Shown here: in pieces, positions 1,236-14,199 of the stretch | Layout of the letters: each line of letters starts with the position of its first letter | Numbering within the stretch: the first letter of the stretch is position 1 | NCBI GenBank assembly: GCA_964586355.1 | Contig: CAZPGO010000028.1 | Span: 1 to 14,199, forward strand | Direction: 5' to 3' | From: an uncultured archaeon | Lineage (GTDB): Archaea; Iainarchaeota; Iainarchaeia; Iainarchaeales; CSSED10-239 | DNA: 14,199 nt | Notes under the pieces: generated by a model | What the model saw: the letters and a program-made list of their open reading frames with translations, nothing else | What the model was told of the DNA's origin: nothing | The model's database searches: none | Position numbers and translations under genes: made by a program

Positions 1236-1477
1236 GGAACTATGTTAACTTTGTAGCCGACCTTTTCTAGGCTTTTTTTGTGATCTTCCACACACTTCAA
1301 ATAAGCTGATTCATAAACATCTGCCAAAAAAGAAGAAAAATCTTTTAAATCTGAGTCTGACAGAAAATACAAAACTCTATCCACTAGCTTTTCATGCTTC
1401 GAGTATTTGTTTTCTAAAATATCTAAAACATATTTCTTAAAATAAATGTTTCTATTATTTTTTAATAAATCTAACAT
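1193..1477 (-). CDS. Hypothetical 94-aa protein, translationally coupled to the giant upstream gene
   Basis: Its ATG (1477..1475) shares one base with the TAA stop (1479..1477) of the 1378-aa gene, giving a TAATG junction on the minus strand. No recognisable family. Confidence 0.6.
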   Translation of the reverse strand: MLDLLKNNRNIYFKKYVLDILENKYSKHEKLVDRVLYFLSDSDLKDFSSFLADVYESAYLKCVEDHKKSLEKVGYKVNIVPQSKDGVKSDGIQK

Positions 1478-4400
1478 TATACAATATTTTTATCAATAAA
1501 TCTTTTAAAATAAGAATCTAATGAATCCCAACGTCCAGATTTAGTATAGTAATCTTTTATTCTTTTAGCTATACTAGATTTTTCAGAAATTTCTTTTTTA
1601 CTATTAATAATGTTGATAATTTCAACCTTTTTAAGCTTTCCTACATTAGAAAAGTCTGGTTCTGTGGATAAGCTATTGCTATCAATTCTTCTAAGAGTGC
1701 TTCCATAATTTCTGACCGCCAAAGACGTGACCCCCTGCAGCTTGTGAATATATGGTATGGGATCAAAATAATCTCCTGCGTAACCTTGAGGGCGAGCAAA
1801 TCCCCCTGGTTTATACATATTTGATCTTAAGAACTCAAGCACATTTGCTTTAATTAAATTGTTAGACTCAAGATTTTTTCTAAATGAAATTACAGAATTT
1901 TTATAATCATCATTCTGCTTCATTTGAAGCAGCACATCATCAAACATACTTTCAAACTTAACGGCCACGCTCAAAAACATATCAGAAATAGAATCTAAGG
2001 CAACAAAAAAACTTTTAGTGTTACTGCCAGGGTATTTTCTAATATAAGCTATTTCTGCGTCACTTGTTTCTGTGCCAAGTCCTTGTAAAAATAAAGTATA
2101 AGCTCTTAGTAAAGAACCTCTATCTTTATTTGGATCACCTAAAACATAATAAAAAACACTTGCAGATTTAACAAAATTTTCATTGCTAGTCTGACCTAGC
2201 TGTATGAGGTTACCAACTATGTTTGAAATCTTTCTCAAGTTAGAATCCACATTGTTTGCATAGTTAATTTTTTCTACCAATTTTTTAACTTCTGGAACTA
2301 CGCTATTAAATTTTTGCTTAAAATCTTTAACATAAGAATTTGTTTCATCAACCAAAGCGTCCTCCGACGAGGGTTCTTTGGTTGATTTTTCTCTTGCAAC
2401 AGATAAGCCAGAGATATGTTCTATGTCTTTTTGATAAATTTTGTTAGTATAATCATGTAAAGATTCTATTTGTTGTTTAATAGTTAAAGAGCTATCTTCA
2501 GGCGTATCATCTAATATTTTTTGGTTAAATATGTAGCTATCTGTACCTATAGTGCCTTGACTACTTGACCCATTGCCAACCAAAAATTCTTTTTCTTCTT
2601 TAACTTTGCCTAACAAAGTATCTTTTTGATCTTGTGTGAGCAAAGATTTATTTGTTTCGTAGAAAGTTCTTAAAAAGTTTCTTAATTCAGTTGGTGGACC
2701 AAACCTCCAGTTTTCCATGTCAGGCCTAAAATTGTCTTTATCAGCTTGAAACTCTCCTTTGTTTTCAGATTTTCTATAGCCAGGAAAATACCATTCGGCC
2801 ATTTCATCATCATCATCATCTCCAATTACGTCTATAGAAAATATAGAATTTAAAGCTTTGCTATTAGAATTATTAAGTTTTGATTTTTTTTCCAAGTCAT
2901 CTAAATAACTTTGGTATTCGGACAAAGATCGTTTAAATGCAAAAACACTTAATGTTCCTATTAAATTTTTTCTAGATTTTCTACCTACTTGTCCGTGATT
3001 TATGGAGCCTCTTTTTACTTTTTGATAACCACTTTGTAGCCATTTTCCTATTGTCGAACAAAACACATTTACTGCGCTCTTTTTTTCTCCAGAATCACCA
3101 AGAAAAGTTTTCCAAATACCCTTGTTTCCGCCAGCAATTACCTCTCCGACAACATAATCATGAAGATCTTGTATTCTACCAGGATTCTCTAAAAGCCATA
3201 CCCTAAAGCCAACATTGCCATCATTATTACAAACAATTTTTTTCATCGATAAACAGTCGTTTATGGCCTTAATAATTAAAGGAAAACCCATAATCTCTGG
3301 GTTAGAGTTCGACTTAATCACTTTTAAACGCAAGGGATCAGTCTCGCTCGATGAATATTGTCCCTCTCTATTTTCTTCTCCATCATCGGAAGAGGTTTTA
3401 CGTGGAATTTTTATCTCCTCTCCTATTCTATAACCATTTAAAACAAAAGGATAATAATCAGGAAGATCATATTTTGAGTAAAAATTAATAGGATCTACAT
3501 CATCATAAATATCTATTATGCTACCGCCAAAGAGCTGCTTATATTTTTTTATAACATCTGATTTAGAAAAAACTTGATCTATATGATCAGGATGAGACCA
3601 AACTTTTATAAAAGAAGCCTTGTCGTTTTTTCTCCACCTATTAAAGCCAAACTTTCTAGTTGCTCCTTTAGTATCTATGCTATAGTATACTCCGTCAACT
3701 CCCGCCTTTTTTAAATATCTACCTGAGCTTTTAGCACTTATTACTTTTACTTCTTTTTCTTCTCCATTATCATCAACTAGTTTGTAAACACTAGTTCTAT
3801 CGCTTGTACTAGGTGTATAAAAATCATCTTTAGGCTTACTTTTTTCGTCTTCTGGGGCGTCTTGATCTGAATCTGAATTACCGACTTCACCTTTAACATC
3901 ATCATTAGAGTCAGCATTAGAAGATTTAGAACTTAAAACCCCAGACAAATACATACCAGGTTTTAACAAAGGCACATTAATTTCTTTTTCTTCTCCATCA
4001 TAACCAACAAACTTTCTTTTAACAAAGGGAAGAACCACCGGAGCATAATCCATATCCCCCGGGACCAACTTTTTTTTGCCATTTATTGTTTTTAAATTTA
4101 ATGGCAAGCGGCCAGTTTTAATAAAATTCTCTAGTTCCTCTTTGGAAAGATTTTTTTCCAATTCACTTCTAGCATCAGAATCTAATCTCAAAAAACTTTG
4201 CCTTCTGGCTTCTTCATCTTCTCCATCTAATATTCTTGGACCCAAAACTCTTTTGCCTGTTTCTAATATATGATCGGCCTGTTTTTCTGCAAAATAGCCA
4301 GCAAATTTATTGAGAATTTTTCTATTTCCACTAATATTTTGCCAATTACTAACATAACTTCTTGCAATATTAGCCTTATTTTCTTTATCATCGCTAGATG

Positions 4401-5613
4401 CGACAAGGTCAGATCTGTTTTTTAATATGTATTCAATTGTTTCATTGTCTGTAGTGGCCCAATCTCCGGTTTCTATCTCATCACGAAACTTAGAATCTAC
4501 TATATCATAAAAACCATTGTCTTTGACTTTAGACCAAGATTGTAAAGTTCTATTTTTAGAAATAAACTCAACTATTTTGTTATTAAAGCTTTTTTTAATT
4601 ACATCATAATTAAAGCTGTCTTCTAAATTTCTTCCTATACTAAAAAATCTATAAGTCAATAAAGGACTTCCATCACTATCAGTTCCGCTAAACTTTTTAA
4701 AGTTTTCATCACTAGGTAAAGGGCCCATATGCCTTTGGTAGTTAAATTTAGCTAATTCCCTTATTAAGTTCTTAACACCTTTACTAGTATCTAGTGAAGG
4801 AAAGGTAAAACCCCTGGTTTTTCCGGCCGCAGTTGACCTACCCCCTCCCAAAGATATGTTTTGAGTTCTAGCCCTACCTAAATCAAAACCGTAACTTCCT
4901 GTTTTTTTCATTTCAATAGGAACTTCTTTTTCAAGAGTTCTACTAAGATTCATTAATTTTTGACTATTACCTGGCAGAGTTATTTCTTCTCCTTTAGTAG
5001 TTTCTAGTTTTTGTATAAGTCTGTTTATATGCATAGGAACAAAAGTCTTAGATGCACCACGGTTTCCACTTAATTTGTATGCTTTCTTTTCTTTAGCAAA
5101 AGGAACTATATAACCACATATCATGTATCTGAGTTCATGAAGAAAACTTCTTGAGCCTTTTTTTTTGGCTCTATCAAAATCCTCGCCATACTCTTCTCTA
5201 AAGTCTTTTTCCCAATTTTTTAATTTAACTTTTTCTTCCACAGGAGTAGCAACCTTGTCTCCGTAATCATTAAAACCAGAAGCAAAATTATTTACAAAAT
5301 CAACAAAAGAATCTAATGAAATGTTTTCTCTATCTTCTTTTGTTTTATATAGCTTATTAAAATCTCTTACAAAGGCAGACTCTATTTTTTTTCTAACAGC
5401 ATCTCTTTTCTTTAATTCTTCTAAAAGAACCTCATAGCGTGTCGATATAGCATAAGTCCAAAGAGTGTAGTCTATTTGGTAAAGAAAGTCTAAGTCTTCT
5501 TCGTCAAGCAACACAGAGCTTTCAGGGGTATCTCCCCTTCTTGCTTCTAATATGAACTCTGTGTCATGACTAATAACAAAAAAATTCTTAAAATTAAACA
5601 TTTTAAATGCCAT
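1477..5613 (-). CDS. Giant hypothetical protein (1378 aa), possibly virion-associated; function unknown
   Basis: Uninterrupted 4.1-kb ATG-initiated ORF, so coding status is essentially certain. I recognise no catalytic or fiber-type motifs. An acidic Ser/Asp/Glu-rich, probably disordered linker (about residues 560-600, nt ~3820-3940) separates two large blocks. A D5 tract is encoded by a (TCA)5 microsatellite. The gene is divergent from the neck gene, with start codons 22 nt apart. Confidence 0.9.
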   Translation of the reverse strand: MAFKMFNFKNFFVISHDTEFILEARRGDTPESSVLLDEEDLDFLYQIDYTLWTYAISTRYEVLLEELKKRDAVRKKIESAFVRDFNKLYKTKEDRENISLDSFVDFVNNFASGFNDYGDKVATPVEEKVKLKNWEKDFREEYGEDFDRAKKKGSRSFLHELRYMICGYIVPFAKEKKAYKLSGNRGASKTFVPMHINRLIQKLETTKGEEITLPGNSQKLMNLSRTLEKEVPIEMKKTGSYGFDLGRARTQNISLGGGRSTAAGKTRGFTFPSLDTSKGVKNLIRELAKFNYQRHMGPLPSDENFKKFSGTDSDGSPLLTYRFFSIGRNLEDSFNYDVIKKSFNNKIVEFISKNRTLQSWSKVKDNGFYDIVDSKFRDEIETGDWATTDNETIEYILKNRSDLVASSDDKENKANIARSYVSNWQNISGNRKILNKFAGYFAEKQADHILETGKRVLGPRILDGEDEEARRQSFLRLDSDARSELEKNLSKEELENFIKTGRLPLNLKTINGKKKLVPGDMDYAPVVLPFVKRKFVGYDGEEKEINVPLLKPGMYLSGVLSSKSSNADSNDDVKGEVGNSDSDQDAPEDEKSKPKDDFYTPSTSDRTSVYKLVDDNGEEKEVKVISAKSSGRYLKKAGVDGVYYSIDTKGATRKFGFNRWRKNDKASFIKVWSHPDHIDQVFSKSDVIKKYKQLFGGSIIDIYDDVDPINFYSKYDLPDYYPFVLNGYRIGEEIKIPRKTSSDDGEENREGQYSSSETDPLRLKVIKSNSNPEIMGFPLIIKAINDCLSMKKIVCNNDGNVGFRVWLLENPGRIQDLHDYVVGEVIAGGNKGIWKTFLGDSGEKKSAVNVFCSTIGKWLQSGYQKVKRGSINHGQVGRKSRKNLIGTLSVFAFKRSLSEYQSYLDDLEKKSKLNNSNSKALNSIFSIDVIGDDDDDEMAEWYFPGYRKSENKGEFQADKDNFRPDMENWRFGPPTELRNFLRTFYETNKSLLTQDQKDTLLGKVKEEKEFLVGNGSSSQGTIGTDSYIFNQKILDDTPEDSSLTIKQQIESLHDYTNKIYQKDIEHISGLSVAREKSTKEPSSEDALVDETNSYVKDFKQKFNSVVPEVKKLVEKINYANNVDSNLRKISNIVGNLIQLGQTSNENFVKSASVFYYVLGDPNKDRGSLLRAYTLFLQGLGTETSDAEIAYIRKYPGSNTKSFFVALDSISDMFLSVAVKFESMFDDVLLQMKQNDDYKNSVISFRKNLESNNLIKANVLEFLRSNMYKPGGFARPQGYAGDYFDPIPYIHKLQGVTSLAVRNYGSTLRRIDSNSLSTEPDFSNVGKLKKVEIINIINSKKEISEKSSIAKRIKDYYTKSGRWDSLDSYFKRFIDKNIV
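2804..2820. repeat. (TCA)5 trinucleotide microsatellite encoding poly-Asp in the giant ORF
   Basis: Plus strand tcatcatcatcatcatc. On the minus strand this reads GAT x5 and encodes ...IGDDDDDEM... Confidence 0.8.
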
Positions 5614-5635: not shown

Positions 5636-6496
5636 ATGAATAAAATTTTAGAAATAAGCACCCCAACCAAAAACACAGTTTGCAATCCAAGCTGTTCTAG
5701 TGATTTAGGCCCAACAGAAACATTGACTCCTCTTTCTCCTAGAAAAAATAGAGAAAAAGTAAGAGAGCAAATAAAAGACTACGTTTTACTAATGTTGGGA
5801 GCCCCTGTTATAAACATAGAGTTAGACCAACAACAGTTAGATGGTGCGGTAGATTTTTCTTTACAAATAATAGAAGACTATGCTCCCAGAGAGTATTTTC
5901 AATGGTACTTATTTGAAACAGTACCAGGACAAACTATATACAAAATGCCAGATGATGTTGGGATGATAAGACAAGTGGCATACAAAGAAGTAGGCAAACT
6001 AGCGTTTAGTGCTGCTGATCTTGGTGGGGTAATACCACTTGAATATATGGGAGCAGGAGCTTATGGATCCATAGCAGGAGGAATAAACCCTCAAACTCCG
6101 GTATGGGGGAAAATGAATGAATGGGTTTTATACAAACAATACGAAGACATGTACCACAGAAGTGCCGGGCAACAGGGTGGATGGGAATGGATAGGTGGAT
6201 ATTCTAATATAAAACTATATCCAACTCCTTATAAAAATCACTTGGTAGCTGTGCATTATTTACAAAAAAGACCAGACTTTAAAGAAGTAACACAAGCAAT
6301 GCAAGAAGGCGCCTTGGCGTTTGCAAAAATAATGGTGGGAAGAATAAGATCTAAAATAATGAATCCTCCTGGGCCCAACGGAGGAATTCAATTAGATGGA
6401 CAACAAATATTACAAGAAGGTCTTCAAGAAAAAAAAGAATGGGAAGAAAGACTAATAAATAGATTTGGAGATCTCCCAAGCATAACACTAGGATAA
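5636..6496 (+). CDS. Neck / head-completion protein, T4 gp13/gp14 family-like (286 aa)
   Basis: The N-terminal block ...KVREQIKDYVLLMLGAPVINIELDQQQLDGAVDFSLQIIEDY... resembles the conserved N-terminal motif of the T4 neck protein family (gp13/gp14), from memory. Size and the structural-gene neighbourhood are compatible. Confidence 0.5.
   Translation: MNKILEISTPTKNTVCNPSCSSDLGPTETLTPLSPRKNREKVREQIKDYVLLMLGAPVINIELDQQQLDGAVDFSLQIIEDYAPREYFQWYLFETVPGQTIYKMPDDVGMIRQVAYKEVGKLAFSAADLGGVIPLEYMGAGAYGSIAGGINPQTPVWGKMNEWVLYKQYEDMYHRSAGQQGGWEWIGGYSNIKLYPTPYKNHLVAVHYLQKRPDFKEVTQAMQEGALAFAKIMVGRIRSKIMNPPGPNGGIQLDGQQILQEGLQEKKEWEERLINRFGDLPSITLG
6454..6461 (+). promoter_or_regulatory. Late-promoter-like AATAAATA embedded in the 3' end of the neck gene
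   Basis: Lies 38 nt upstream of ATG 6500, which has a weak AGGA ribosome-binding site. It is part of a 15-nt string, CTAATAAATAGATTT, that recurs exactly at 10734-10748 upstream of the gene at 10820. Confidence 0.2.
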
Positions 6497-7459: not shown

Positions 7460-7630
7460 ATGAATATTTATGAGTTATTTTATAAAATAATAGAAGATCC
7501 AAGATGTATAAAATATTATAAAGATTTAGCCAAATACTACGAAAAAACAAATAATGAAAAAAAAAATCTATATGAAAAAATTATAAATAAATATGAAAAT
7601 AGCAATAATAATAGTAACAAAAAACAATGA
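7460..7630 (+). CDS. Possible small protein (56 aa from ATG 7460), TPR-like helical repeat flavour
   Basis: MNIYELFYKIIEDPRCIKYYKDLAKYYEKTNNEKKNLYEKIINKYE... The track start at 7442 is a TTG. Contains an A10 run and overlaps the start of the next gene by 38 nt in another frame. Coding status is uncertain. Confidence 0.3.
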   Translation: MNIYELFYKIIEDPRCIKYYKDLAKYYEKTNNEKKNLYEKIINKYENSNNNSNKKQ

Positions 7631-8522
7631 AAAATCAATCAAAAAATGTATAAAGTCACTAGATTTCATTCAAAACAAAAATGTATATTACACAGATTTA
7701 AACAGCTCTGACGATACAGAAGAACATTTAAAGAAATTTATAAAAATAGAAAAAATTTCATCTGGTCCCTGTGACAATAAAAACAACTTAATAAAAAATT
7801 CAAAAGAAGATTGGATTTTATCGATAGAGCCCTGGGAGGAATTGGCCGCCGGGGCAAGTGAAATTCAAAATTTGATAAACAACAAAAAAAACAACAATCA
7901 ATACAAGGCTTTAATTTTAGATAATGAAATAATAAACAAATCAATAAGATTATTTAAAAAAACAAAAGAAACAATATTTAAAAACGAAATATATGAAGAG
8001 ATATATATTAAAAACACACCCACATCAAATATATTAATAAAAAAAAATGAACAAAATATAGAAAATGAAAAAGAAAAAATAGAAAAGTGGATGCTAAAAA
8101 ATAAAACTAATCCAAAATCATATTATTATATGTGTTGTTTTAATTTAAAAAATAAAAACTATTTAGAATTTAAAAAGCATTCAGAAAAATACATTTTTTT
8201 AGAAAAAAATGTAAATTTACCCTCTGTTGTCATGACAAAATACTATCAATCGATAATAAACTTACATGTATTTAAAAATTTTAAACAAAGTGTAAATGAC
8301 ATAATTTTTTGTATTGATCACAAACCAGACATGGCAGAATTTTGGTGTGTTTTAGGTGATATAAACTACAAATTAAATAAATATCAAAAATCAATGTATT
8401 TTTATGAAAATGCAATTATGTTTGGAGAAAACAGAAAAATAGACGATGATTTTTCCATAGAAATAAAAAAATATAAAAAATATCCTGAAGAGATGATAAA
8501 AAGATGCAAAGAATCAATCTAA
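7593..8522 (+). CDS. Glycosyltransferase family 2-like N-domain plus TPR-like C-terminus (309 aa), DxD motif degenerate
   Basis: The N-terminus KIAIIIVTKNNEKSIKKCIKSL...YTDLNSSDDTEEHLKKF...EDWILSIEPWEEL parallels the bacterial GT2-TPR pattern (I.IVKNEE..L..CL.S...IVDTGSTD.T.EI...DWIL.LDADE.L). The DAD position reads EPW. The C-terminal AEFWCVLGDINYKLNKYQKSMYFYENAIMFG looks like a TPR repeat. Confidence 0.5.
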   Translation: MKIAIIIVTKNNEKSIKKCIKSLDFIQNKNVYYTDLNSSDDTEEHLKKFIKIEKISSGPCDNKNNLIKNSKEDWILSIEPWEELAAGASEIQNLINNKKNNNQYKALILDNEIINKSIRLFKKTKETIFKNEIYEEIYIKNTPTSNILIKKNEQNIENEKEKIEKWMLKNKTNPKSYYYMCCFNLKNKNYLEFKKHSEKYIFLEKNVNLPSVVMTKYYQSIINLHVFKNFKQSVNDIIFCIDHKPDMAEFWCVLGDINYKLNKYQKSMYFYENAIMFGENRKIDDDFSIEIKKYKKYPEEMIKRCKESI

Positions 8523-9606: not shown

Positions 9607-10617
9607 ATGTCAGAAGAAGATGTTTACAGAGTAAGAAGTGAAAAAAATGAATCATCAGAAAACCAGGAAAAATTAAATAAAATAGAAAATATGAGAAAAA
9701 TGGCCAACGAAGAATCTCAGGTCAAAAAAGAAAATTTTCCTTTTGAAGTAAAAGGCAACATACCAAATCAGCTTTTAAATAAAATCCAAGGAGAAAAAAG
9801 CGATTCAAGAGTAGAAACTATATCAGGATCTAGTGAACTAAAAGAAATACTAGAAGCAATAAAATCAAAAGCAGTTTATGAAAAAATAAGCCTTCCATCA
9901 AATGGAAGATTTTATAATGGAGAAGACGGCCCAACAGATGGAGTTTTAAGCATAAGACCAATGACAGGAGAAGAAGAGCAAATATTGGCAACACAAAGAT
10001 TTATCAAAAAGGGCACAGCACTAGACATGATATTTTCTCGGTGCATAAAGGAACCTTTTAAAGTTGAAAACCTATTGACGGTGGACAGAACATATCTCTT
10101 AATTTACCTAAGAGGAATAAGTTACTCAAACTTATATGAAGTAGAAATAAAGTGTCCAGAATGTGATTCAAAATTCTCCACAGAACTAGACTTGGACTCT
10201 TTGGAAGTAGAATATTGCCCAGAAAATTTCGGACCCATTTTAGAAGATAAACTACCTACTTCGGGACTGTCTTTCTCCTACAGGCTATCAAAAGGAGGAG
10301 ATGAAACAGAAATACAAAGACACAGAGAAAGAAGGATTAAAAATTTTGGAGACTCAACAGACGATACTCTTATTTACAGAACCGCTCTTTTAACAGAAAG
10401 AATAGAAGGCATAACAGAAAAAAGAGAACTTCAAACTTTAATAAAAAATTTACCAATATCAGATGTGAATTATTTAAGAAATTGCACAAGCGAACCTCCT
10501 TTTGGAGTAGATACAAAAGTACAAATTGCTTGCCCAATGTGCTTGGCCGAATTTGAAGTGGAGTTGCCACTTGAATCAAATTTTTTCTTCCCAAAGAAGA
10601 GGAGGGAGAAGGAGTAG
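9607..10617 (+). CDS. Baseplate hub protein, T4 gp26 family-like (336 aa) with an extra about 85-aa acidic/basic N-terminal extension
   Basis: AAGGA ribosome-binding site 7 nt before the ATG. The core KISLPSNGRFY...GVLSIRPMTGEEEQILATQ resembles the T4_baseplate/gp26 family signature (LPS.G..Y...v.vrpmt..dE..L), from memory. Two CxxC pairs (CPECDSKF, CPMCLAEF) suggest a zinc ribbon. Confidence 0.55.
   Translation: MSEEDVYRVRSEKNESSENQEKLNKIENMRKMANEESQVKKENFPFEVKGNIPNQLLNKIQGEKSDSRVETISGSSELKEILEAIKSKAVYEKISLPSNGRFYNGEDGPTDGVLSIRPMTGEEEQILATQRFIKKGTALDMIFSRCIKEPFKVENLLTVDRTYLLIYLRGISYSNLYEVEIKCPECDSKFSTELDLDSLEVEYCPENFGPILEDKLPTSGLSFSYRLSKGGDETEIQRHRERRIKNFGDSTDDTLIYRTALLTERIEGITEKRELQTLIKNLPISDVNYLRNCTSEPPFGVDTKVQIACPMCLAEFEVELPLESNFFFPKKRREKE
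10581..10587 (+). promoter_or_regulatory. Candidate -1 frameshift slippery heptamer T_TTT_TTC
   Basis: The zero frame reads TCA AAT TTT TTC TTC CCA, so the heptamer fits X_XXY_YYZ in the correct phase, 28 nt before the TAG at 10615-10617. The -1 frame is open from 10575 onward. Confidence 0.35.
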
Positions 10618-10817
10618 AAAACTCTTGTTTTAAGCTATGGGAAAGCATAGCTGAGGATATCTTCTTTTTTCAATATCACATGCACCAATCAACAAAAGAT
10701 TGTATGTCATTGCCTATAGATCTAAGAAAATGGCTAATAAATAGATTTATAATGCAAAAAGAAAAAGAAAATGAACAAATGGAAGCAGAGCGTAGAAAAA
10801 TTAAAACTAAGAGGTAA
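10587..10817 (+). CDS. -1 frame extension ORF (76 codons) of the gp26-like gene, or alternatively an independent 45-aa gene from ATG 10680
   Basis: Absent from the ORF track. My translation: LPKEEEGEGVENSCFKLWESIAEDIFFFQYHMHQSTKDCMSLPIDLRKWLINRFIMQKEKENEQMEAERRKIKTKR*. It ends at TAA 10815-10817, 2 nt before the next ATG. It fills an otherwise 202-nt non-coding gap. The internal ATGs (10680, 10704) have no Shine-Dalgarno. Confidence 0.4.
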   Translation, partial: LPKEEEGEGVENSCFKLWESIAEDIFFFQYHMHQSTKDCMSLPIDLRKWLINRFIMQKEKENEQMEAERRKIKTKR

Positions 10818-10819
10818 AG

Positions 10820-11560
10820 ATGTCTAGTGACAGTGACTATCAAATAAAAGAAAGATTTCAAAATCCTAATTGCAATGATATTGTGAGGCTTAGACTTTTT
10901 TCTTTTAATTCAAATGAGAAAAAAAATGTTTTTAAAATAAATAAAGTAAAAATATTACAAGTAAGCCAAGAAGATCAAACAGAACTATTAATAAAAACAA
11001 TAGATCAAGAAGAAATTCAAAATCCATCAAATGGAGAGTATTACATAGATTTACACTTGAATAAAGAAGAATTTACAATAGGAAATTACATAGATAAATG
11101 GGAAATACAGTTTGAAGAAAGCGAAGACTGTTCTGTAAATAACGTAAATAATTTTTTTCAAGTATTACCATCTATATGGTTCACGTCTTCGGGTCCAAAC
11201 ATTTATGATTTTAGCTTTAAGTTTAAACCAAATAAAATAATTTTAGGTAGCAAAAAATACCTAGTCATAGAAATAAACCCTATAACTCCAAGAATAGAAG
11301 ATATAGAAAAGTATTACGCAAATATAGCAATTACATCACAATTAAAAATAAATATAGAAAAAAATTGCGGAAACTGCCCTGTGGAAGAAAAAGAAATAAT
11401 TATAGAAGATGAGCTAGTGAGCTTCAGAGAAAAAAACTTAGGTTACTATTTAATGGACACAACAGAAATGGAAGAAGGAATATATAACATTTGGTTTAAA
11501 TTAGAGCATGGAGAAAACATATACGTATCAGAGAAAAACCAAGTTCAAATATTCTCATGA
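10820..11560 (+). CDS. Hypothetical protein (246 aa); tail/baseplate role possible from position only
   Basis: GAGG ribosome-binding site 5 nt before the ATG. Long clean ORF directly downstream of the hub-like gene. No family recognised. Confidence 0.65.
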   Translation: MSSDSDYQIKERFQNPNCNDIVRLRLFSFNSNEKKNVFKINKVKILQVSQEDQTELLIKTIDQEEIQNPSNGEYYIDLHLNKEEFTIGNYIDKWEIQFEESEDCSVNNVNNFFQVLPSIWFTSSGPNIYDFSFKFKPNKIILGSKKYLVIEINPITPRIEDIEKYYANIAITSQLKINIEKNCGNCPVEEKEIIIEDELVSFREKNLGYYLMDTTEMEEGIYNIWFKLEHGENIYVSEKNQVQIFS

Positions 11561-12121
11561 ATCAACTTTAGAAGAAAAGAAAAAACTATCATCTAGTTTT
11601 ATAAATTCATCTAACGAAATTGCCACCCACTGATTGTAGTTTAAACTATAAGTAAAATTATTACCAACTAAATCCAAATCTTTTTTAAGAATAAAAACCA
11701 GCCAAGGCTTTCTAGATCTTTTCCAAGCCAACAAAGGTTTTTTATTACATCTTTTGGCATCTCTGAAGGCTTGAGTTAAAAACTTATTCAGGTCGCTATT
11801 ACCCCTAACCAAAATTGAATTTAAATCAATGCCGTCATAGCCACCTTTGACTTCTAGTATAAATTTAAATTCAATGGGTGTTATTAAATCAGAACTAAAA
11901 ACATCTTGCGCATGTTTTGGAAGATAAGGAGTTTGACTCCATCTATTACCGCTGCCTATACTTCTAGAAAAAGCTTTTTTAAATCTTTTAGTTAATATTT
12001 TAGCAAGTTCTAATTCCGTCCTGTTGCCCTTCTTTTTAGAATTTATTTTTCTTTTACTCCTGTTGCTCAATATATCGTCTACGACTTGATCTTCGTCTTC
12101 GTCTCTTGGGTATTGTTGCAT
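11555..12121 (-). CDS. PD-(D/E)xK nuclease, archaeal Hjc / phage Holliday-junction-resolvase-like (188 aa)
   Basis: AAGGA ribosome-binding site 6 nt before the ATG. The motif order KKKGNRTELELAKIL...RSIGSG...DVFSSD...FILEVKGG fits the G-x3-E ... SG ... D ... E-V-K pattern of Hjc-type resolvases. Confidence 0.55.
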   Translation of the reverse strand: MQQYPRDEDEDQVVDDILSNRSKRKINSKKKGNRTELELAKILTKRFKKAFSRSIGSGNRWSQTPYLPKHAQDVFSSDLITPIEFKFILEVKGGYDGIDLNSILVRGNSDLNKFLTQAFRDAKRCNKKPLLAWKRSRKPWLVFILKKDLDLVGNNFTYSLNYNQWVAISLDEFIKLDDSFFFSSKVDS

Positions 12122-12716: not shown

Positions 12717-13040
12717 ATGTTTAAAAAATTTAAAACTTTTATAAAAGAAAATAAAAAACTAGACGAGTTTTTTTATGAAAAACAAATAACTATGTTTTTT
12801 GAATATAAAAATAAACTATATGGAGCAAAAGAGCAAGACAGAATCATATTTGCAAAAATGAAATCAAATTTAAAAATTAAAAAAAATTATTTAGAATACA
12901 AAAAAGAAAATTTTTATGGCTACCCTATAGAAGATCTATTAAAAGGAGAAGATAAAAAAAAGGAATTTTATAAAAAAGATTTAAAAGAAATAAAAGTACT
13001 ACAAATAGAAAAAGTAAAAGAAAAATTAAAAGATGGATAG
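12717..13040 (+). CDS. Hypothetical Lys-rich protein (107 aa)
   Basis: ATG ORF. Its stop overlaps the next ATG (ATGGATAG, 13033-13040), implying translational coupling to the zinc-finger nuclease gene. Confidence 0.5.
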   Translation: MFKKFKTFIKENKKLDEFFYEKQITMFFEYKNKLYGAKEQDRIIFAKMKSNLKIKKNYLEYKKENFYGYPIEDLLKGEDKKKEFYKKDLKEIKVLQIEKVKEKLKDG

Positions 13041-13662
13041 AAAATATACCTGTTTTGTATGTGGAATAAACCTGGATAGTCACGAAATTTATAAAAACCA
13101 CATAATAAAAGAACATGAAATTGGAAGAGACTATGTGTTATGCCCTTTAAATAGATGTGGATATCCAGTTAGGTGCATAAGAACTCACTACAAAGCACAC
13201 CATCCAAAAGAATCCATACCAAAAGTAATACAATTGAGAGCCACTTTGTGGAGGGATTTTACAAAAAATAAAAAAACTTATCAAAAGCCAAAATTTAAAG
13301 AAGGATATTTTGAAAGTAAGAAAAACAACAAAATTTTGCACTACAGAAGCGGTTATGAGTTAGATGTTTACAAAGCTTTAGAAAAAATAAACAGTGTAAT
13401 AGAATATTATGTGGAACCAATTAAAATAGGATATTTATTTGAAGGAAAAAAACATACATACAACCCAGACTTGGTAGTAATCTTTGATGATAACCACAAA
13501 GAAGTATGGGAAATTAAACCATCAAACCAAACAGACTTGCCCAAAAACAATGCTAAATGGGTGGCTTGTGATAACTATTGTCAAATGAGAGGGTGGAAAT
13601 TTGTAGTAATAACAGAAAGAGGAATAAATAAACTAAAAAAAGTTAGTAAAAATATAATTTAG
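13033..13662 (+). CDS. Two C2H2-type zinc fingers fused to a TnsA-like PD-(D/E)xK endonuclease domain (209 aa); candidate homing endonuclease
   Basis: Finger 1: C7-x2-C10-x12-H23-x4-H28 (CFVCGINLDSHEIYKNHIIKEH), the classical spacing. Finger 2: C37-x4-C42-x9-H52-x3-H56. The C-terminal domain SGYE(109)LDVYKALE...YVEPIKIGY...HTYNPD(146)LVVIF...VWE(160)IK(162)P matches the TnsA N-terminal / restriction-endonuclease-like pattern S..E ... Y.PD ... E.K. Confidence 0.65.
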   Translation: MDRKYTCFVCGINLDSHEIYKNHIIKEHEIGRDYVLCPLNRCGYPVRCIRTHYKAHHPKESIPKVIQLRATLWRDFTKNKKTYQKPKFKEGYFESKKNNKILHYRSGYELDVYKALEKINSVIEYYVEPIKIGYLFEGKKHTYNPDLVVIFDDNHKEVWEIKPSNQTDLPKNNAKWVACDNYCQMRGWKFVVITERGINKLKKVSKNII

Positions 13663-14199
13663 TTTGTTTTCTTTTTCTTCTTTGCTAATGTTATAATTAT
13701 CTAAAACATAATCAAAATTAGACCAATTATAATTATTACTATCCAATGAGTTTTCTATAAAATTATTAGAATTAAAAGGATTTCTAGTAAGTCTCAATAC
13801 AAAACCACTCTCTTGTTTTATAGAAGAAACTTCATCTGGAAACCTAACATCTGTTATTATGGCTATATCAGGGTTTTCCTTTTTTATTAAACTTAATGTA
13901 GAACTAGTCCAAACATCAACTTTTAAACTTCTAAAAATATCAGTTCCAACAACCTCCATCACCTCTCTAGCTGTTAATTTTTTTTCTTTCCAAAAAACAC
14001 TTGTTAATGTGTTTTTTTGATCATCAGTACCATAGCATTGATCATAAGATAAACCTAAAATATTTATGCATATATCTTTTTTTAATCTGTCTGCAAAGGC
14101 ATATTGCCTAATAGTCTTTTCGGGAAAAAGAGTTTGAAAAAACCCCAGCAAATAATCACCAGAAGTGCTTTTGCCACTTTGTTTTCTGCCGCTGATACC
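13633..14199 (-). CDS. Deoxynucleoside monophosphate kinase, T4 gp1-like (5' end beyond the right window edge)
   Basis: The frame stays open upstream of the track's TTG start to the window edge: GISGRKQSGKSTSGDYLLGFF... This gives a Walker A motif like T4 gp1 SGVKRSGKDTTADFI. Further matches to gp1: REVMEVVGTDIFRSLKVDVW with RRLMQALGTDLIVNNFDRMYW, AIITDVRFPDEV with YIVPDTRQDHEM, and GFVLRLTRN with ATVIHVVRPG. Confidence 0.75.
   Translation of the reverse strand, partial: GISGRKQSGKSTSGDYLLGFFQTLFPEKTIRQYAFADRLKKDICINILGLSYDQCYGTDDQKNTLTSVFWKEKKLTAREVMEVVGTDIFRSLKVDVWTSSTLSLIKKENPDIAIITDVRFPDEVSSIKQESGFVLRLTRNPFNSNNFIENSLDSNNYNWSNFDYVLDNYNISKEEKENKLNYIFTNFF

What the first reader, a model, noticed from the sequence alone, without database searches (positions are those of the whole stretch)
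10575..10817. Candidate programmed -1 frameshift (T_TTT_TTC) joining the gp26-like hub gene to a start-less 76-codon ORF
Seen in the sequence:
- The heptamer T_TTT_TTC (10581-10587) sits in the correct X_XXY_YYZ phase, 28 nt before the TAG of the 336-aa gene.
- The -1 frame opens at 10575 and runs to TAA 10815-10817, stopping 2 nt before the next gene's ATG.
- It encodes protein-like sequence with Trp, Cys and hydrophobic residues (…FKLWESIAEDIFFFQYHMHQSTKDCMSLPIDLRKWLINRF…).
- Its first ATG (10680) has no ribosome-binding site. Using it would leave a 62-nt gap in a genome where co-directional genes abut or overlap.

Established knowledge: tail assembly chaperone genes of long-tailed phages (lambda G/GT, P2 E/E+E' with T TTT TTG) use this layout, with a slippery site near the end of ORF1 and a start-less -1 extension.

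Inference: a fraction of ribosomes would produce a product of about 400 aa with junction ...ESNFF-LPKEEEGEGVENSCFK... If real, this points to a G/GT-like two-product mechanism in a T4-type hub-assembly gene, which I am not aware of being described. Alternative explanations are a T6 homopolymer sequencing error splitting one longer gene, or an independent small gene.
Basis: partly seen in the sequence, partly recalled or inferred. Interest (0 to 1): 0.7.

Follow-up and report, generated by a model that had tools for sequence, protein, structure and literature searches.

The report
Conserved -1 frameshift in gp26-like chaperone gene
The slippery T_TTT_TTC site and the start-less downstream reading frame are real and are conserved in more than 80 related giant-phage sequences, so this gene very probably makes a short and a long protein by ribosomal frameshifting, as tail assembly chaperone genes of other long-tailed phages are known to do.

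Summary
Gene 9607..10617 encodes 336 aa and matches Pfam PF12322 (T4 gp26-type "baseplate hub"). It carries T_TTT_TTC at 10581-10587 in X_XXY_YYZ phase. The -1 frame is open from 10575 to TAA 10815-10817.

In this AT-rich window the heptamer alone is not above chance: there are 62 in-phase heptamers in 1827 codons. The comparative evidence is decisive.
- In 82 loci (47-66% aa identity) the heptamer is nucleotide-invariant in 80, while control Phe codons nearby vary freely.
- The -1 ORF is always open for 70-93 codons and encodes a conserved protein block.
- That block starts upstream of any start codon in 51 of 56 distinct sequences; none has an ATG there.
- None of the 120 best protein homologues is a fused single ORF.

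In cultured relatives (SP-15, LIS04, HSE3) the same gene sits between the tail tube and tape measure genes, which is the tail assembly chaperone slot. T4 itself has no frameshift; it has two paralogous genes, gp26 (short) and gp51 (long).

Verdict: a real programmed -1 frameshift of the lambda G/GT type and a new member of a known kind. It is unannotated in public records, but a 2022 paper I could not read probably anticipates it.

The parts
9607..10617 (+). Zero-frame gene, 336 aa: gp26-type 'baseplate hub' / tail assembly chaperone short form (TAC-N equivalent). It has two CxxC motifs (CPEC 183-186, CPMC 309-312).
   Evidence: Pfam PF12322 T4_baseplate, E 1.9e-17, 64.1 bits against a cut-off of 24.5, residues 96-327. 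phrog_150 baseplate hub, E 1.9e-21. The AF2 model matches SP-15 'baseplate hub subunit' with TM 0.82 and many gp26/gp51-type proteins in BFVD.
10581..10587 (+). Slippery heptamer T_TTT_TTC in X_XXY_YYZ phase. This is the proposed site of tandem -1 slippage of two tRNA-Phe.
   Evidence: for phase. It is invariant in 80 of 82 loci; the other two have C_TTT_TTC. Among 57 distinct sequences the Phe codons read TTT 57/57, TTC 57/57 and TTC 55/57, whereas control Phe codons 30 and 81 nt upstream are T30/C27 and T37/C20.
10587..10817 (+). -1 frame extension, 76 codons plus TAA (TAC-C equivalent). It has no start codon of its own before its conserved block.
   Evidence: Translation. 56 distinct homologous -1 products share the consensus S..LW..LAEEiFFFqYH....M...M..PIN.RKW.I.RFI.QKE.EN.AMEA.RRK. 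Codon-position entropy is 0.87 / 0.51 / 1.37 bits, as expected of a coding frame. 51 of 56 have no ATG/GTG/TTG before the block and none has an ATG.
10572..10574 (+). TGA in the -1 frame. It sets the 5' limit of where a productive shift can occur; the shift window is 10575-10614.
   Evidence: In most relatives the -1 frame also opens only 2 codons before the heptamer.
10615..10617 (+). TAG stop of the zero frame. The short product ends ...NFFFPKKRREKE.
   Evidence: Relatives stop 10-23 codons after the heptamer with TAA, TAG or TGA, so the standard genetic code applies.
10590..10596 (+). Second in-phase slippery heptamer, C_CCA_AAG, specific to this window. It would give the same extension, with junction NFFFPK-EEEG.
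   Evidence: It is not conserved: most relatives have TTC CCN CGN.
10599..10670 (+). Candidate, unproven downstream stimulatory structure. The purine tract GAGGAGGG (10599-10606), 11 nt 3' of the heptamer, can pair with the pyrimidine tract TCTTTTTT (10663-10670).
   Evidence: RNAalifold consensus of 8 pairs, -3.6 kcal/mol. 97% of cells are paired, but composition-preserving shuffles give 95.2% and slid controls 67-88%. The single-sequence fold has z = -1.57. No Rfam match. Inconclusive.
10820..11560 (+). Conserved downstream partner gene, 246 aa. It is predicted to be two tandem Ig-like beta-sandwich domains of unknown function.
   Evidence: A homologue lies directly downstream on the same strand in 82 of 82 loci, mostly within -25..+18 nt of the -1 ORF stop. 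AF2 pLDDT is 85. Foldseek gives only generic Ig-like matches. No Pfam or PHROG family.

Best explanation
Gene 9607..10617 is a gp26-family (PF12322) tail or hub assembly chaperone. It is decoded in two ways.

Most ribosomes read the zero frame to the TAG at 10615 and make the 336-aa short form. A minority pause with tRNA-Phe on UUU (P site) and UUC (A site) of U_UUU_UUC. Both tRNAs slip back one base, and translation continues in the -1 frame through 76 more codons to the TAA at 10815. This makes a 403-aa long form with junction ...LPLESNFF-LPKEEEGEGVENSCFKLW....

The two products share the chaperone body and differ in the C-terminal tail. The short form ends in a basic tail, FPKKRREKE. The long form carries an acidic linker followed by a conserved helical domain of about 55 aa.

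By analogy with lambda G/GT, the short form would coat the tape measure or hub protein, and the long form's extra domain would recruit another tail component. The fixed low ratio of the two would be set by the frameshift efficiency.

Shown here: the layout, its conservation, the coding status of the -1 frame, and the absence of an independent start. Inferred: the ribosomal (rather than transcriptional) nature of the shift, its efficiency, any stimulatory RNA element, and the roles of the two products.
For: (1) Anatomy is as described.

(2) 82 loci at 47-66% aa identity keep T_TTT_TTC in the same phase. 80 of 82 are exact, and the site is followed by TTC CC. Neighbouring wobble positions vary freely (GAA/GAG, GCA/GCG/GCC/TCA, CCN, CGN/AGR).

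(3) Synonymous-site entropy drops to 0-0.2 bits across the heptamer, against 1.3-1.9 bits elsewhere. Two other invariant Phe residues use TTT and TTC about equally.

(4) The -1 ORF is open for 70-93 codons in all 82 loci. Its product is conserved and shows a coding-type codon-position pattern.

(5) The conserved block begins before any ATG. 51 of 56 distinct sequences have no ATG, GTG or TTG at all in that interval.

(6) All 120 best protein homologues stop at 83% or less of the fused query, and 119 of 120 end ...NFFFP(R/K)4 plus about 6 aa. No fused ORFs exist, so this is not an indel artefact.

(7) Gene callers give the extension inconsistent starts: 41 aa and 60 aa on two copies of one contig, and representative hits beginning at query residues 17, 23, 30 or 32.

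(8) The same family occupies the sheath - tube - X - (small ORF or gap) - tape measure slot in SP-15, LIS04 and HSE3. In Mel-JY01 it follows sheath and tube, with a large unannotated ORF downstream.

(9) The distant relatives Atu_ph07 and XacN1 also have an in-phase T_TTT_TTC or T_TTT_TTT and a -1 ORF of 81-86 codons.

(10) T4 gp26 and gp51 are paralogues (BLASTP E 2e-6). gp51 carries a C-terminal extension that aligns end to end with the -1 extension profile, weakly (hhalign P 0.007). This fits a short-form plus long-form pair.
Against: - No direct evidence of translation exists: no proteomics or ribosome profiling, and the phage is uncultured.
- No convincing stimulatory RNA element was found.
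- In this window the gene is not next to tail tube or tape measure genes, so the chaperone role rests on homology and on synteny in relatives.
- The predicted fold is not significantly similar to solved chaperone structures. HK97 chaperone 2OB9 ranks only 15th, at E 4.6 and TM 0.48.
- Homology of the extension to the C-terminus of gp51 is weak: hmmsearch is not significant and hhalign probability is about 6%.
- A T6 run could in principle also support RNA polymerase slippage.
- Part of the heptamer's invariance could come from dual-coding constraint, since the C of TTC is also the first base of the conserved Leu codon CTT in the -1 frame.
Confidence: 0.85

Rival explanations
1. Transcriptional slippage. 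RNA polymerase adds one extra U on the T6 tract, so a fraction of mRNAs carry U7 and encode the long form in a single frame. The ribosome does not shift.
For: The site contains a homopolymer (T6). Distant relatives have T6 or T7 tracts at the same place with the extension in the +1 frame (SP-15, LIS04, Mel-JY01). A slippage-prone tract could serve either direction through insertion or deletion.
Against: - From established knowledge, productive bacterial transcriptional slippage normally needs runs of about 8-9 or more A or T. Here the run is exactly six in all 82 loci and is never longer.
- The phase relative to the zero frame is strictly kept, as X_XXY_YYZ requires. Transcriptional slippage does not require this.
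- The +1-frame relatives HSE3 and GXN1 have TTC TTT C with no homopolymer at all.
Confidence: 0.07
2. The downstream ORF is an independent small gene, of 45 aa from ATG 10680 or from a non-canonical start. It is translated by its own initiation or by termination-reinitiation after the TAG.
For: Gene callers annotate small ORFs here (SP15_046, HSE3_gp075, FDI40_gp687, and 41-60 aa ORFs in L104/L105). A few metagenomic proteins with this domain start with Met and have unrelated N-termini of 40-50 aa (P0141, P0143, P0156, P0124).
Against: - The conserved block S..LW..LAEE.FFF.YH lies upstream of the first ATG in the window and in relatives. The first ATG falls anywhere from 14 to 39 codons after the heptamer.
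- 51 of 56 sequences have no ATG, GTG or TTG before the block.
- No Shine-Dalgarno precedes ATG 10680.
- Called starts are inconsistent.
- The -1 frame is kept open back to the heptamer in every locus, and in most it opens only 2 codons before it.
Confidence: 0.04
3. Artefact or decay. A homopolymer sequencing or assembly error, or a recent frameshift mutation, has split one longer gene.
For: T6 runs are error-prone on some sequencing platforms. One metagenomic protein (P0158) reads through in a garbled way.
Against: - The same T6C and the same frame relationship occur in 80 or more independent assemblies from different samples and in complete cultured-phage genomes.
- None of the 120 best homologues is a fused ORF.
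- The zero-frame tail after the heptamer, P(R/K)4...QA followed by the stop, is itself conserved.
Confidence: 0.01

Closest known systems
Lambda G/GT and P2 E/E+E' tail assembly chaperone frameshift (Levin et al. 1993; Christie et al. 2002; Xu, Hendrix, Duda 2004; from established knowledge, references listed)
   Same: A start-less ORF sits in the -1 frame, overlapping the 3' end of ORF1. An in-phase X_XXY_YYZ heptamer lies a few codons before the ORF1 stop; P2 uses the near-identical T_TTT_TTG. The two products share an N-terminal body. In cultured relatives the gene sits between the tail tube and tape measure genes.
   Different: The protein family differs: PF12322 with two CxxC motifs, 336 aa against roughly 100-140 aa. 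There is no significant match to Pfam chaperone families or to solved chaperone folds. In this window the gene is not adjacent to tube or tape measure genes. The extension is short, at 76 aa.
Phage T4 gp26 and gp51 (hub assembly chaperones; Leiman et al. 2010, PMC3004832, Table 2)
   Same: Sequence family is shared (PF12322; fold matches to gp26/gp51-type proteins). gp26 and gp51 are paralogues. gp51 resembles a gp26-like body plus a C-terminal tail...DEIFTFYQINH...MIPAERGFVLKLIEKDKQ, which resembles the -1 extension EDIFFFQYHMH...LPIDLRKWLINRFIMQKEKE (weak).
   Different: T4 has no frameshift. gp26 ends ...LKEFFELL-TAA just after the FF motif, with GAG TTC TTT GAG and no heptamer, and it abuts gene 25. 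The short and long forms are separate, divergently transcribed genes. T4 gene 26 also has an annotated internal start, 26'. This matches how PRFect describes Vladimirov et al. 2022: a short gene plus a separate fused long gene.
'Baseplate hub' genes of Agrobacterium phage Atu_ph07 and Xanthomonas phage XacN1
   Same: They belong to the same family and have the same in-phase T_TTT_TTC (Atu_ph07) or T_TTT_TTT (XacN1) at the homologous FF codons. Each has a -1 ORF of 81-86 codons.
   Different: Body identity is only 20-38%. The records annotate just the last 40-60 codons as separate hypothetical proteins.
'Baseplate hub' genes of Bacillus phages SP-15 and HSE3, Listeria phage LIS04, Streptococcus phage GXN1 and Microcystis phage Mel-JY01
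   Same: They belong to the same family. In SP-15, LIS04 and HSE3 the gene sits in the chaperone slot between tube and tape measure. The homologous extension (LALWNSILDEQF...FERKEMY...) is reached at the same FF codons.
   Different: The extension is in the +1 frame: GAA TTT TTT CAC, GAG TTT TTT AGT, TTC TTT CGT or AAC TTT TTT TGG. A +1 (or -2) event would be needed there, not a -1 event.
E. coli dnaX -1 frameshift (from established knowledge)
   Same: Tandem -1 slippage occurs on an X_XXY_YYZ heptamer and yields two products with a common N-terminus.
   Different: dnaX uses A_AAA_AAG with an upstream Shine-Dalgarno-like element and a strong downstream hairpin. Here no upstream SD-like sequence is seen, and only a weak, unproven long-range pairing lies downstream.

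Membership tests
Frameshifted tail assembly chaperone pair (lambda G/GT type) | Second ORF overlaps the 3' end of the first in another frame and lacks its own start | tested here: met
   The -1 frame is open from 10575 to 10817. The conserved block lies upstream of any ATG, and 51 of 56 relatives have no ATG/GTG/TTG there.
Frameshifted tail assembly chaperone pair (lambda G/GT type) | In-phase slippery heptamer X_XXY_YYZ within the overlap, conserved among relatives | tested here: met
   T_TTT_TTC at 10581-10587. Exact in 80 of 82 loci, and synonymous sites are frozen.
Frameshifted tail assembly chaperone pair (lambda G/GT type) | Gene located between the tail tube (major tail) gene and the tape measure gene | tested here: not met
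   In the window the neighbours are small unknown ORFs, a glycosyltransferase, a 246-aa Ig-like protein and nucleases. The feature is met in the cultured relatives SP-15, LIS04 and HSE3.
Frameshifted tail assembly chaperone pair (lambda G/GT type) | TAC-N fold or sequence family (HK97 gp10-like spiral; Pfam Phage_TAC families) | tested here: inconclusive
   No Pfam chaperone family at E <= 0.1. In Foldseek against the PDB, 2OB9 scores E 4.6 with TM 0.48 over about 90 columns, which is not significant.
Frameshifted tail assembly chaperone pair (lambda G/GT type) | Two products made in a fixed low ratio, both needed for tail assembly and absent from virions | not testable with these tools
   Needs expression, genetics or proteomics.
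T4 gp26/gp51 baseplate hub assembly protein family (Pfam PF12322) | Match to PF12322 above the gathering score over the whole domain | tested here: met
   64.1 bits against a cut-off of 24.5; profile positions 9-218 of 219. Structural matches to gp26/gp51-type proteins.
T4 gp26/gp51 baseplate hub assembly protein family (Pfam PF12322) | T4-type expression: short and long forms from two separate genes, with no recoding | tested here: not met
   The window has one gene plus a -1 extension. T4 gene 26 has no heptamer and no room for an extension, and gp51 is a separate paralogue.
dnaX-type stimulated -1 frameshift | Upstream SD-like element and stable downstream hairpin at 5-8 nt | tested here: inconclusive
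   No SD-like sequence upstream. Only an 8-bp long-range pairing 11 nt downstream, which composition largely explains.

The most novel reading that the evidence does not exclude
Within the single protein family PF12322, the recoding site is anchored to the same conserved Phe-Phe codons, but the direction has flipped during evolution.
- It is -1 (T_TTT_TTY) in the giant-phage clade of this window, in Atu_ph07 and in XacN1.
- It is +1 (TTT TTT N, or TTC TTT C) in the SP-15, LIS04, HSE3, GXN1 and Mel-JY01 lineages.
- In T4 the site is lost altogether and replaced by a gene duplication (gp26 plus gp51).

If all three states are functional, this family would be a natural series showing how a two-product requirement is met by interchangeable decoding solutions. 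The many 'baseplate hub' annotations followed by orphan small ORFs would then all be mis-annotated chaperone pairs.
Probability: 0.3. Interest if true: 0.55.

Novelty: new member of a known kind. Interest (0 to 1): 0.35.

Why it matters
- It identifies the tail assembly chaperone, and its recoded long form, in a large clade of uncultured giant phages. Relatives lie on contigs of up to 673 kb. In these genomes the tail genes are scattered and the gene is labelled only 'hypothetical' or 'baseplate hub'.
- It shows that public records of cultured phages (SP-15, LIS04, HSE3, Atu_ph07, XacN1, Mel-JY01) miss the recoding. They annotate truncated orphan ORFs, or nothing, in its place.
- It ties the T4 gp26/gp51 pair to the classical G/GT paradigm. 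T4 appears to have replaced a frameshift with two genes.
- It gives a clean set of more than 50 natural sequence variants for studying U_UUU_UUC slippage.

The principle itself, frameshifted tail chaperones, has been textbook knowledge since 1993-2004, so the finding refines annotation and evolutionary history and does not reveal a new mechanism.

Tried and rejected
- **Solved-structure searches on the 336-aa protein.** The sequence profile found only chance zinc-finger hits. Foldseek against the PDB found nothing significant; the HK97 chaperone scored E 4.6.
- **Extension versus T4 proteins.** An hmmsearch with a profile of the 56 -1 products was not significant, although gp51 was the top hit at DEIFTF-Y.
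- **Fused products versus gp51.** hhalign against a gp51 alignment gave only a zinc-ribbon segment at probability 6%. The extension-only profile against the gp51 C-terminus aligned full length, but with P 0.007 and probability about 6%. This is suggestive only.
- **Downstream RNA structure.** RNAalifold, pair counting and a single-sequence fold gave a purine/pyrimidine pairing that composition largely explains. Rfam found nothing.
- **Natural in-frame fusions of the extension.** A search of 1.84 billion representative proteins found none. Hits were small ORFs with arbitrary starts, plus one error-ridden read-through, P0158.
- **Alternative genetic code (TAG read-through).** Rejected: relatives end the zero frame with TAA, TAG or TGA at the same place, and the conserved frame is -1.
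- **The key prior paper.** I tried to read Vladimirov et al. 2022; it is not held. Only citing sentences were available.
- **Identity of the 246-aa downstream gene.** Only generic tandem Ig-like folds were found.
Full report
**1. Observation**

- ORF 9607..10617 encodes 336 aa ending ...CPMCLAEFEVELPLESNFFFPKKRREKE-TAG.
- Zero-frame codons AAT TTT TTC (10579-10587) place T_TTT_TTC (10581-10587) in X_XXY_YYZ phase.
- The -1 frame has TGA at 10572-74, opens at 10575 and runs to TAA 10815-17, 2 nt before the ATG of the next gene (10820).
- A -1 slip gives ...ESNFF-LPKEEEGEGVENSCFKLWESIAEDIFFFQYHMHQSTKDCMSLPIDLRKWLINRFIMQKEKENEQMEAERRKIKTKR, 403 aa in all.
- The first ATG in that frame (10680) has no purine-rich leader.

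In this window (GC 23-35%) in-phase heptamers are frequent, 62 in 1827 codons, so the heptamer alone is not above chance. A 78-codon stop-free -1 frame has P of about 0.0017.

**2. What the gene is**

The 336-aa protein matches Pfam PF12322 (T4_baseplate, the gp26 family) at 64 bits, against a cut-off of 24.5, over residues 96-327. It also matches phrog_150, 'baseplate hub'. The extension has no family of its own.

The nearest record in the phage collection is LR756511.1, an uncultured phage genome of 595 kb. Its body is 52% identical and its extension 40% identical, and the extension hit lies in the -1 frame there too. Relatives lie on contigs of up to 673 kb. A neighbouring 286-aa gene is T4 gp13-like. 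The window therefore comes from a giant phage with T4-type morphogenesis genes scattered among unrelated genes.

**3. Comparative test of the frameshift**

A search with the fused 403-aa product returned 999 homologues. All 120 best cover 83% or less of the query, that is, the zero-frame part only. 119 of 120 end ...NFFFP(R/K)4 plus about 6 residues. No fused ORF exists.

Eighty DNA loci from IMG/VR, LR756511 and the window were then analysed together.
- The heptamer is T_TTT_TTC in 80 of 82 loci and C_TTT_TTC in two. It is always followed by TTC CC.
- The zero frame stops 10-23 codons later, with TAA, TAG or TGA.
- The -1 frame is open for 70-93 codons in every locus. In most it opens only 2 codons before the heptamer.

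Among 57 distinct sequences, the three Phe codons at the site read TTT 57/57, TTC 57/57 and TTC 55/57, and the preceding wobble base is T in 56/57. Two other invariant Phe residues 30 and 81 nt upstream use T/C at 30/27 and 37/20. Ordinary wobble positions carry 1.3-1.9 bits of entropy.

The 56 distinct -1 products align with the consensus S..LW..LAEEiFFFqYH....M...M..PIN.RKW.I.RFI.QKE.EN.AMEA.RRK. Codon-position entropies in that frame are 0.87, 0.51 and 1.37 bits, the pattern of a coding frame under purifying selection.

None of the 56 has an ATG between the opening of the -1 frame and the start of the conserved block, and 51 have no GTG or TTG either. Gene callers give the ORF inconsistent starts.

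These results exclude a sequencing error and an independently initiated small gene. They leave recoding at the heptamer as the only consistent reading.

**4. Mechanism**

The best-supported mechanism is tandem -1 slippage of tRNA-Phe on U_UUU_UUC.

I found no convincing stimulator.
- There is no SD-like element upstream.
- A conserved purine tract (GAAGAAGG; GAGGAGGG in the window, 10599-10606) lies 11 nt downstream. It can pair with the pyrimidine tract that encodes the IFFF motif of the extension (10663-10670). Pairing occupies 97% of cells, but composition alone gives 95%.
- The single-sequence fold is unremarkable, with z = -1.57.
- Rfam finds nothing.

The window also has a second, non-conserved in-phase heptamer, C_CCA_AAG (10590-96), that leads to the same extension.

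RNA polymerase slippage on T6 cannot be excluded. It is less likely because the run is never longer than six and the phase is strictly kept.

**5. Function, by context in relatives**

In Bacillus phage SP-15, Listeria phage LIS04 and Bacillus phage HSE3 the PF12322 gene is annotated 'baseplate hub'. It sits in the order sheath - tube - PF12322 - (small ORF or 200-nt gap) - tape measure. This is the canonical slot of the tail assembly chaperone pair. Microcystis phage Mel-JY01 has the order sheath - tube - PF12322 - small ORFs - large ORF.

The same FF codons mark the switch to a homologous extension in all of these relatives (alignment).
- The extension is in the -1 frame in Atu_ph07 (T_TTT_TTC) and XacN1 (T_TTT_TTT).
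- It is in the +1 frame in SP-15, LIS04, HSE3, GXN1, Mel-JY01 and Slickus01.
- None of these records annotates recoding.

**6. Comparison with T4**

T4 gene 26 (208 aa) ends ...LKEFFELL-TAA right after the FF motif. It has no heptamer, abuts gene 25 and carries an annotated internal start, 26'. There is no frameshift in T4.

T4 gp26 and gp51 are paralogues (BLASTP E 2e-6 over about 160 aa). The extra C-terminal tail of gp51 aligns over its full length with the extension profile, but only weakly. hhalign gives P 0.007 and probability about 6%. hmmsearch is not significant, and a comparison of the whole fused product gives only the zinc ribbon.

This fits the description of Vladimirov et al. 2022 in a citing paper: T4-like phages carry a short chaperone gene and a separate fused long one instead of frameshifting. 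Another citing paper says poly-T slippery sequences are known in TAC-N genes of T4-like phages. I could not read the primary paper. Leiman et al. 2010 list gp26 and gp51 as hub assembly chaperones.

**7. Structure**

The AF2 model of the 336-aa protein has pLDDT 72.7, and its first ~90 residues are disordered. It has no significant PDB neighbour; the HK97 chaperone 2OB9 scores E 4.6 and TM 0.48. It matches dozens of 'baseplate hub / hub assembly' proteins of myophages in BFVD, with SP-15 at TM 0.82.

Membership in PF12322 is therefore firm. Membership in the structural chaperone superfamily is untested or inconclusive. 'Works like G/GT' rests on layout, conservation and synteny.

**8. Verdict**

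This is a real, strongly conserved programmed -1 frameshift that makes short and long forms of a gp26-family assembly chaperone. It is a new member of a known kind. It is useful for annotating giant phages and several cultured phages, and for the evolutionary link to T4 gp26/gp51. It is not a new mechanism.

The most novel reading left open is the flip of shift direction (-1 or +1) at one homologous site within the family, together with its replacement by gene duplication in T4.

Noticed in passing
L083 (SP-15) 3190-3425; L086 (LIS04) 3170-3425; L087 (HSE3) 3189-3413; L088 (GXN1) 3200-3515; L084 (Mel-JY01) 3254-3482: In these cultured myophages the homologous chaperone extension lies in the +1 frame, not the -1 frame. 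It is reached at the same conserved FF codons (GAA TTT TTT CAC, GAG TTT TTT AGT, TTC TTT CGT, AAC TTT TTT TGG). None is annotated as recoded; the region is a gap or a truncated 'hypothetical protein'.
   Followed up: partly
L085 (Atu_ph07) 3280-3516; L090 (XacN1) 3229-3489: Two jumbo phages have an in-phase T_TTT_TTC or T_TTT_TTT at the end of the 'baseplate hub' gene and a -1 ORF of 81-86 codons. The records annotate only the last 40-60 codons (FDI40_gp687, ORF316).
   Followed up: partly
window 10590-10596: A second in-phase slippery heptamer, C_CCA_AAG, lies 3 nt after T_TTT_TTC and still ahead of the zero-frame TAG. It would yield the same extension. It is not conserved in relatives.
   Followed up: partly
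window 10820-11560: This 246-aa gene is conserved directly downstream of the -1 ORF in 82 of 82 loci, mostly abutting or overlapping it. It is predicted, with pLDDT 85, to be two tandem Ig-like beta-sandwich domains. It has no family match and its function is unknown. It may be a partner or client of the chaperone.
   Followed up: partly
L082 (T4) 3803-4429 (-) and 4480-5229 (+): T4 gp26 and gp51 are detectable paralogues by plain BLASTP (E 2e-6). gp51 has an extra C-terminal tail that resembles the frameshift extension of this family, though weakly (hhalign P 0.007).
   Followed up: partly
window 5636-6496 and 1477-5613 (-): The 286-aa gene is T4 gp13-like (neck or head-tail adaptor; phrog_211, and PF26809 in the L104 homologue). 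It lies next to a divergent 1378-aa ORF with no family match. The same pair, 286 aa plus 1208 aa, recurs near the chaperone gene in L104/L105.
   Followed up: no
window 13033-13662, 11555-12121 (-), 13633-14151 (-), 7593-8522: Other genes in the window: a TnsA-like endonuclease N-terminal domain protein (PHROG label 'head closure'); a PDDEXK / RusA-like nuclease; a dNMP kinase; and a GT2 glycosyltransferase with a TPR tail. Tail genes are therefore scattered among metabolic genes here.
   Followed up: no
L001 3952-4236: In LR756511.1 an extra ORF of about 90 codons is inserted between the end of the -1 extension and the 246-aa homologue. The two abut in the window and in most loci.
   Followed up: no
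P0141, P0143, P0156, P0124: A few metagenomic proteins of 78-123 aa carry the extension domain after an unrelated Met-initiated N-terminus. In some lineages the domain may be a free-standing gene, or these may be alternative-frame read-ins. Their contexts were not examined.
   Followed up: no
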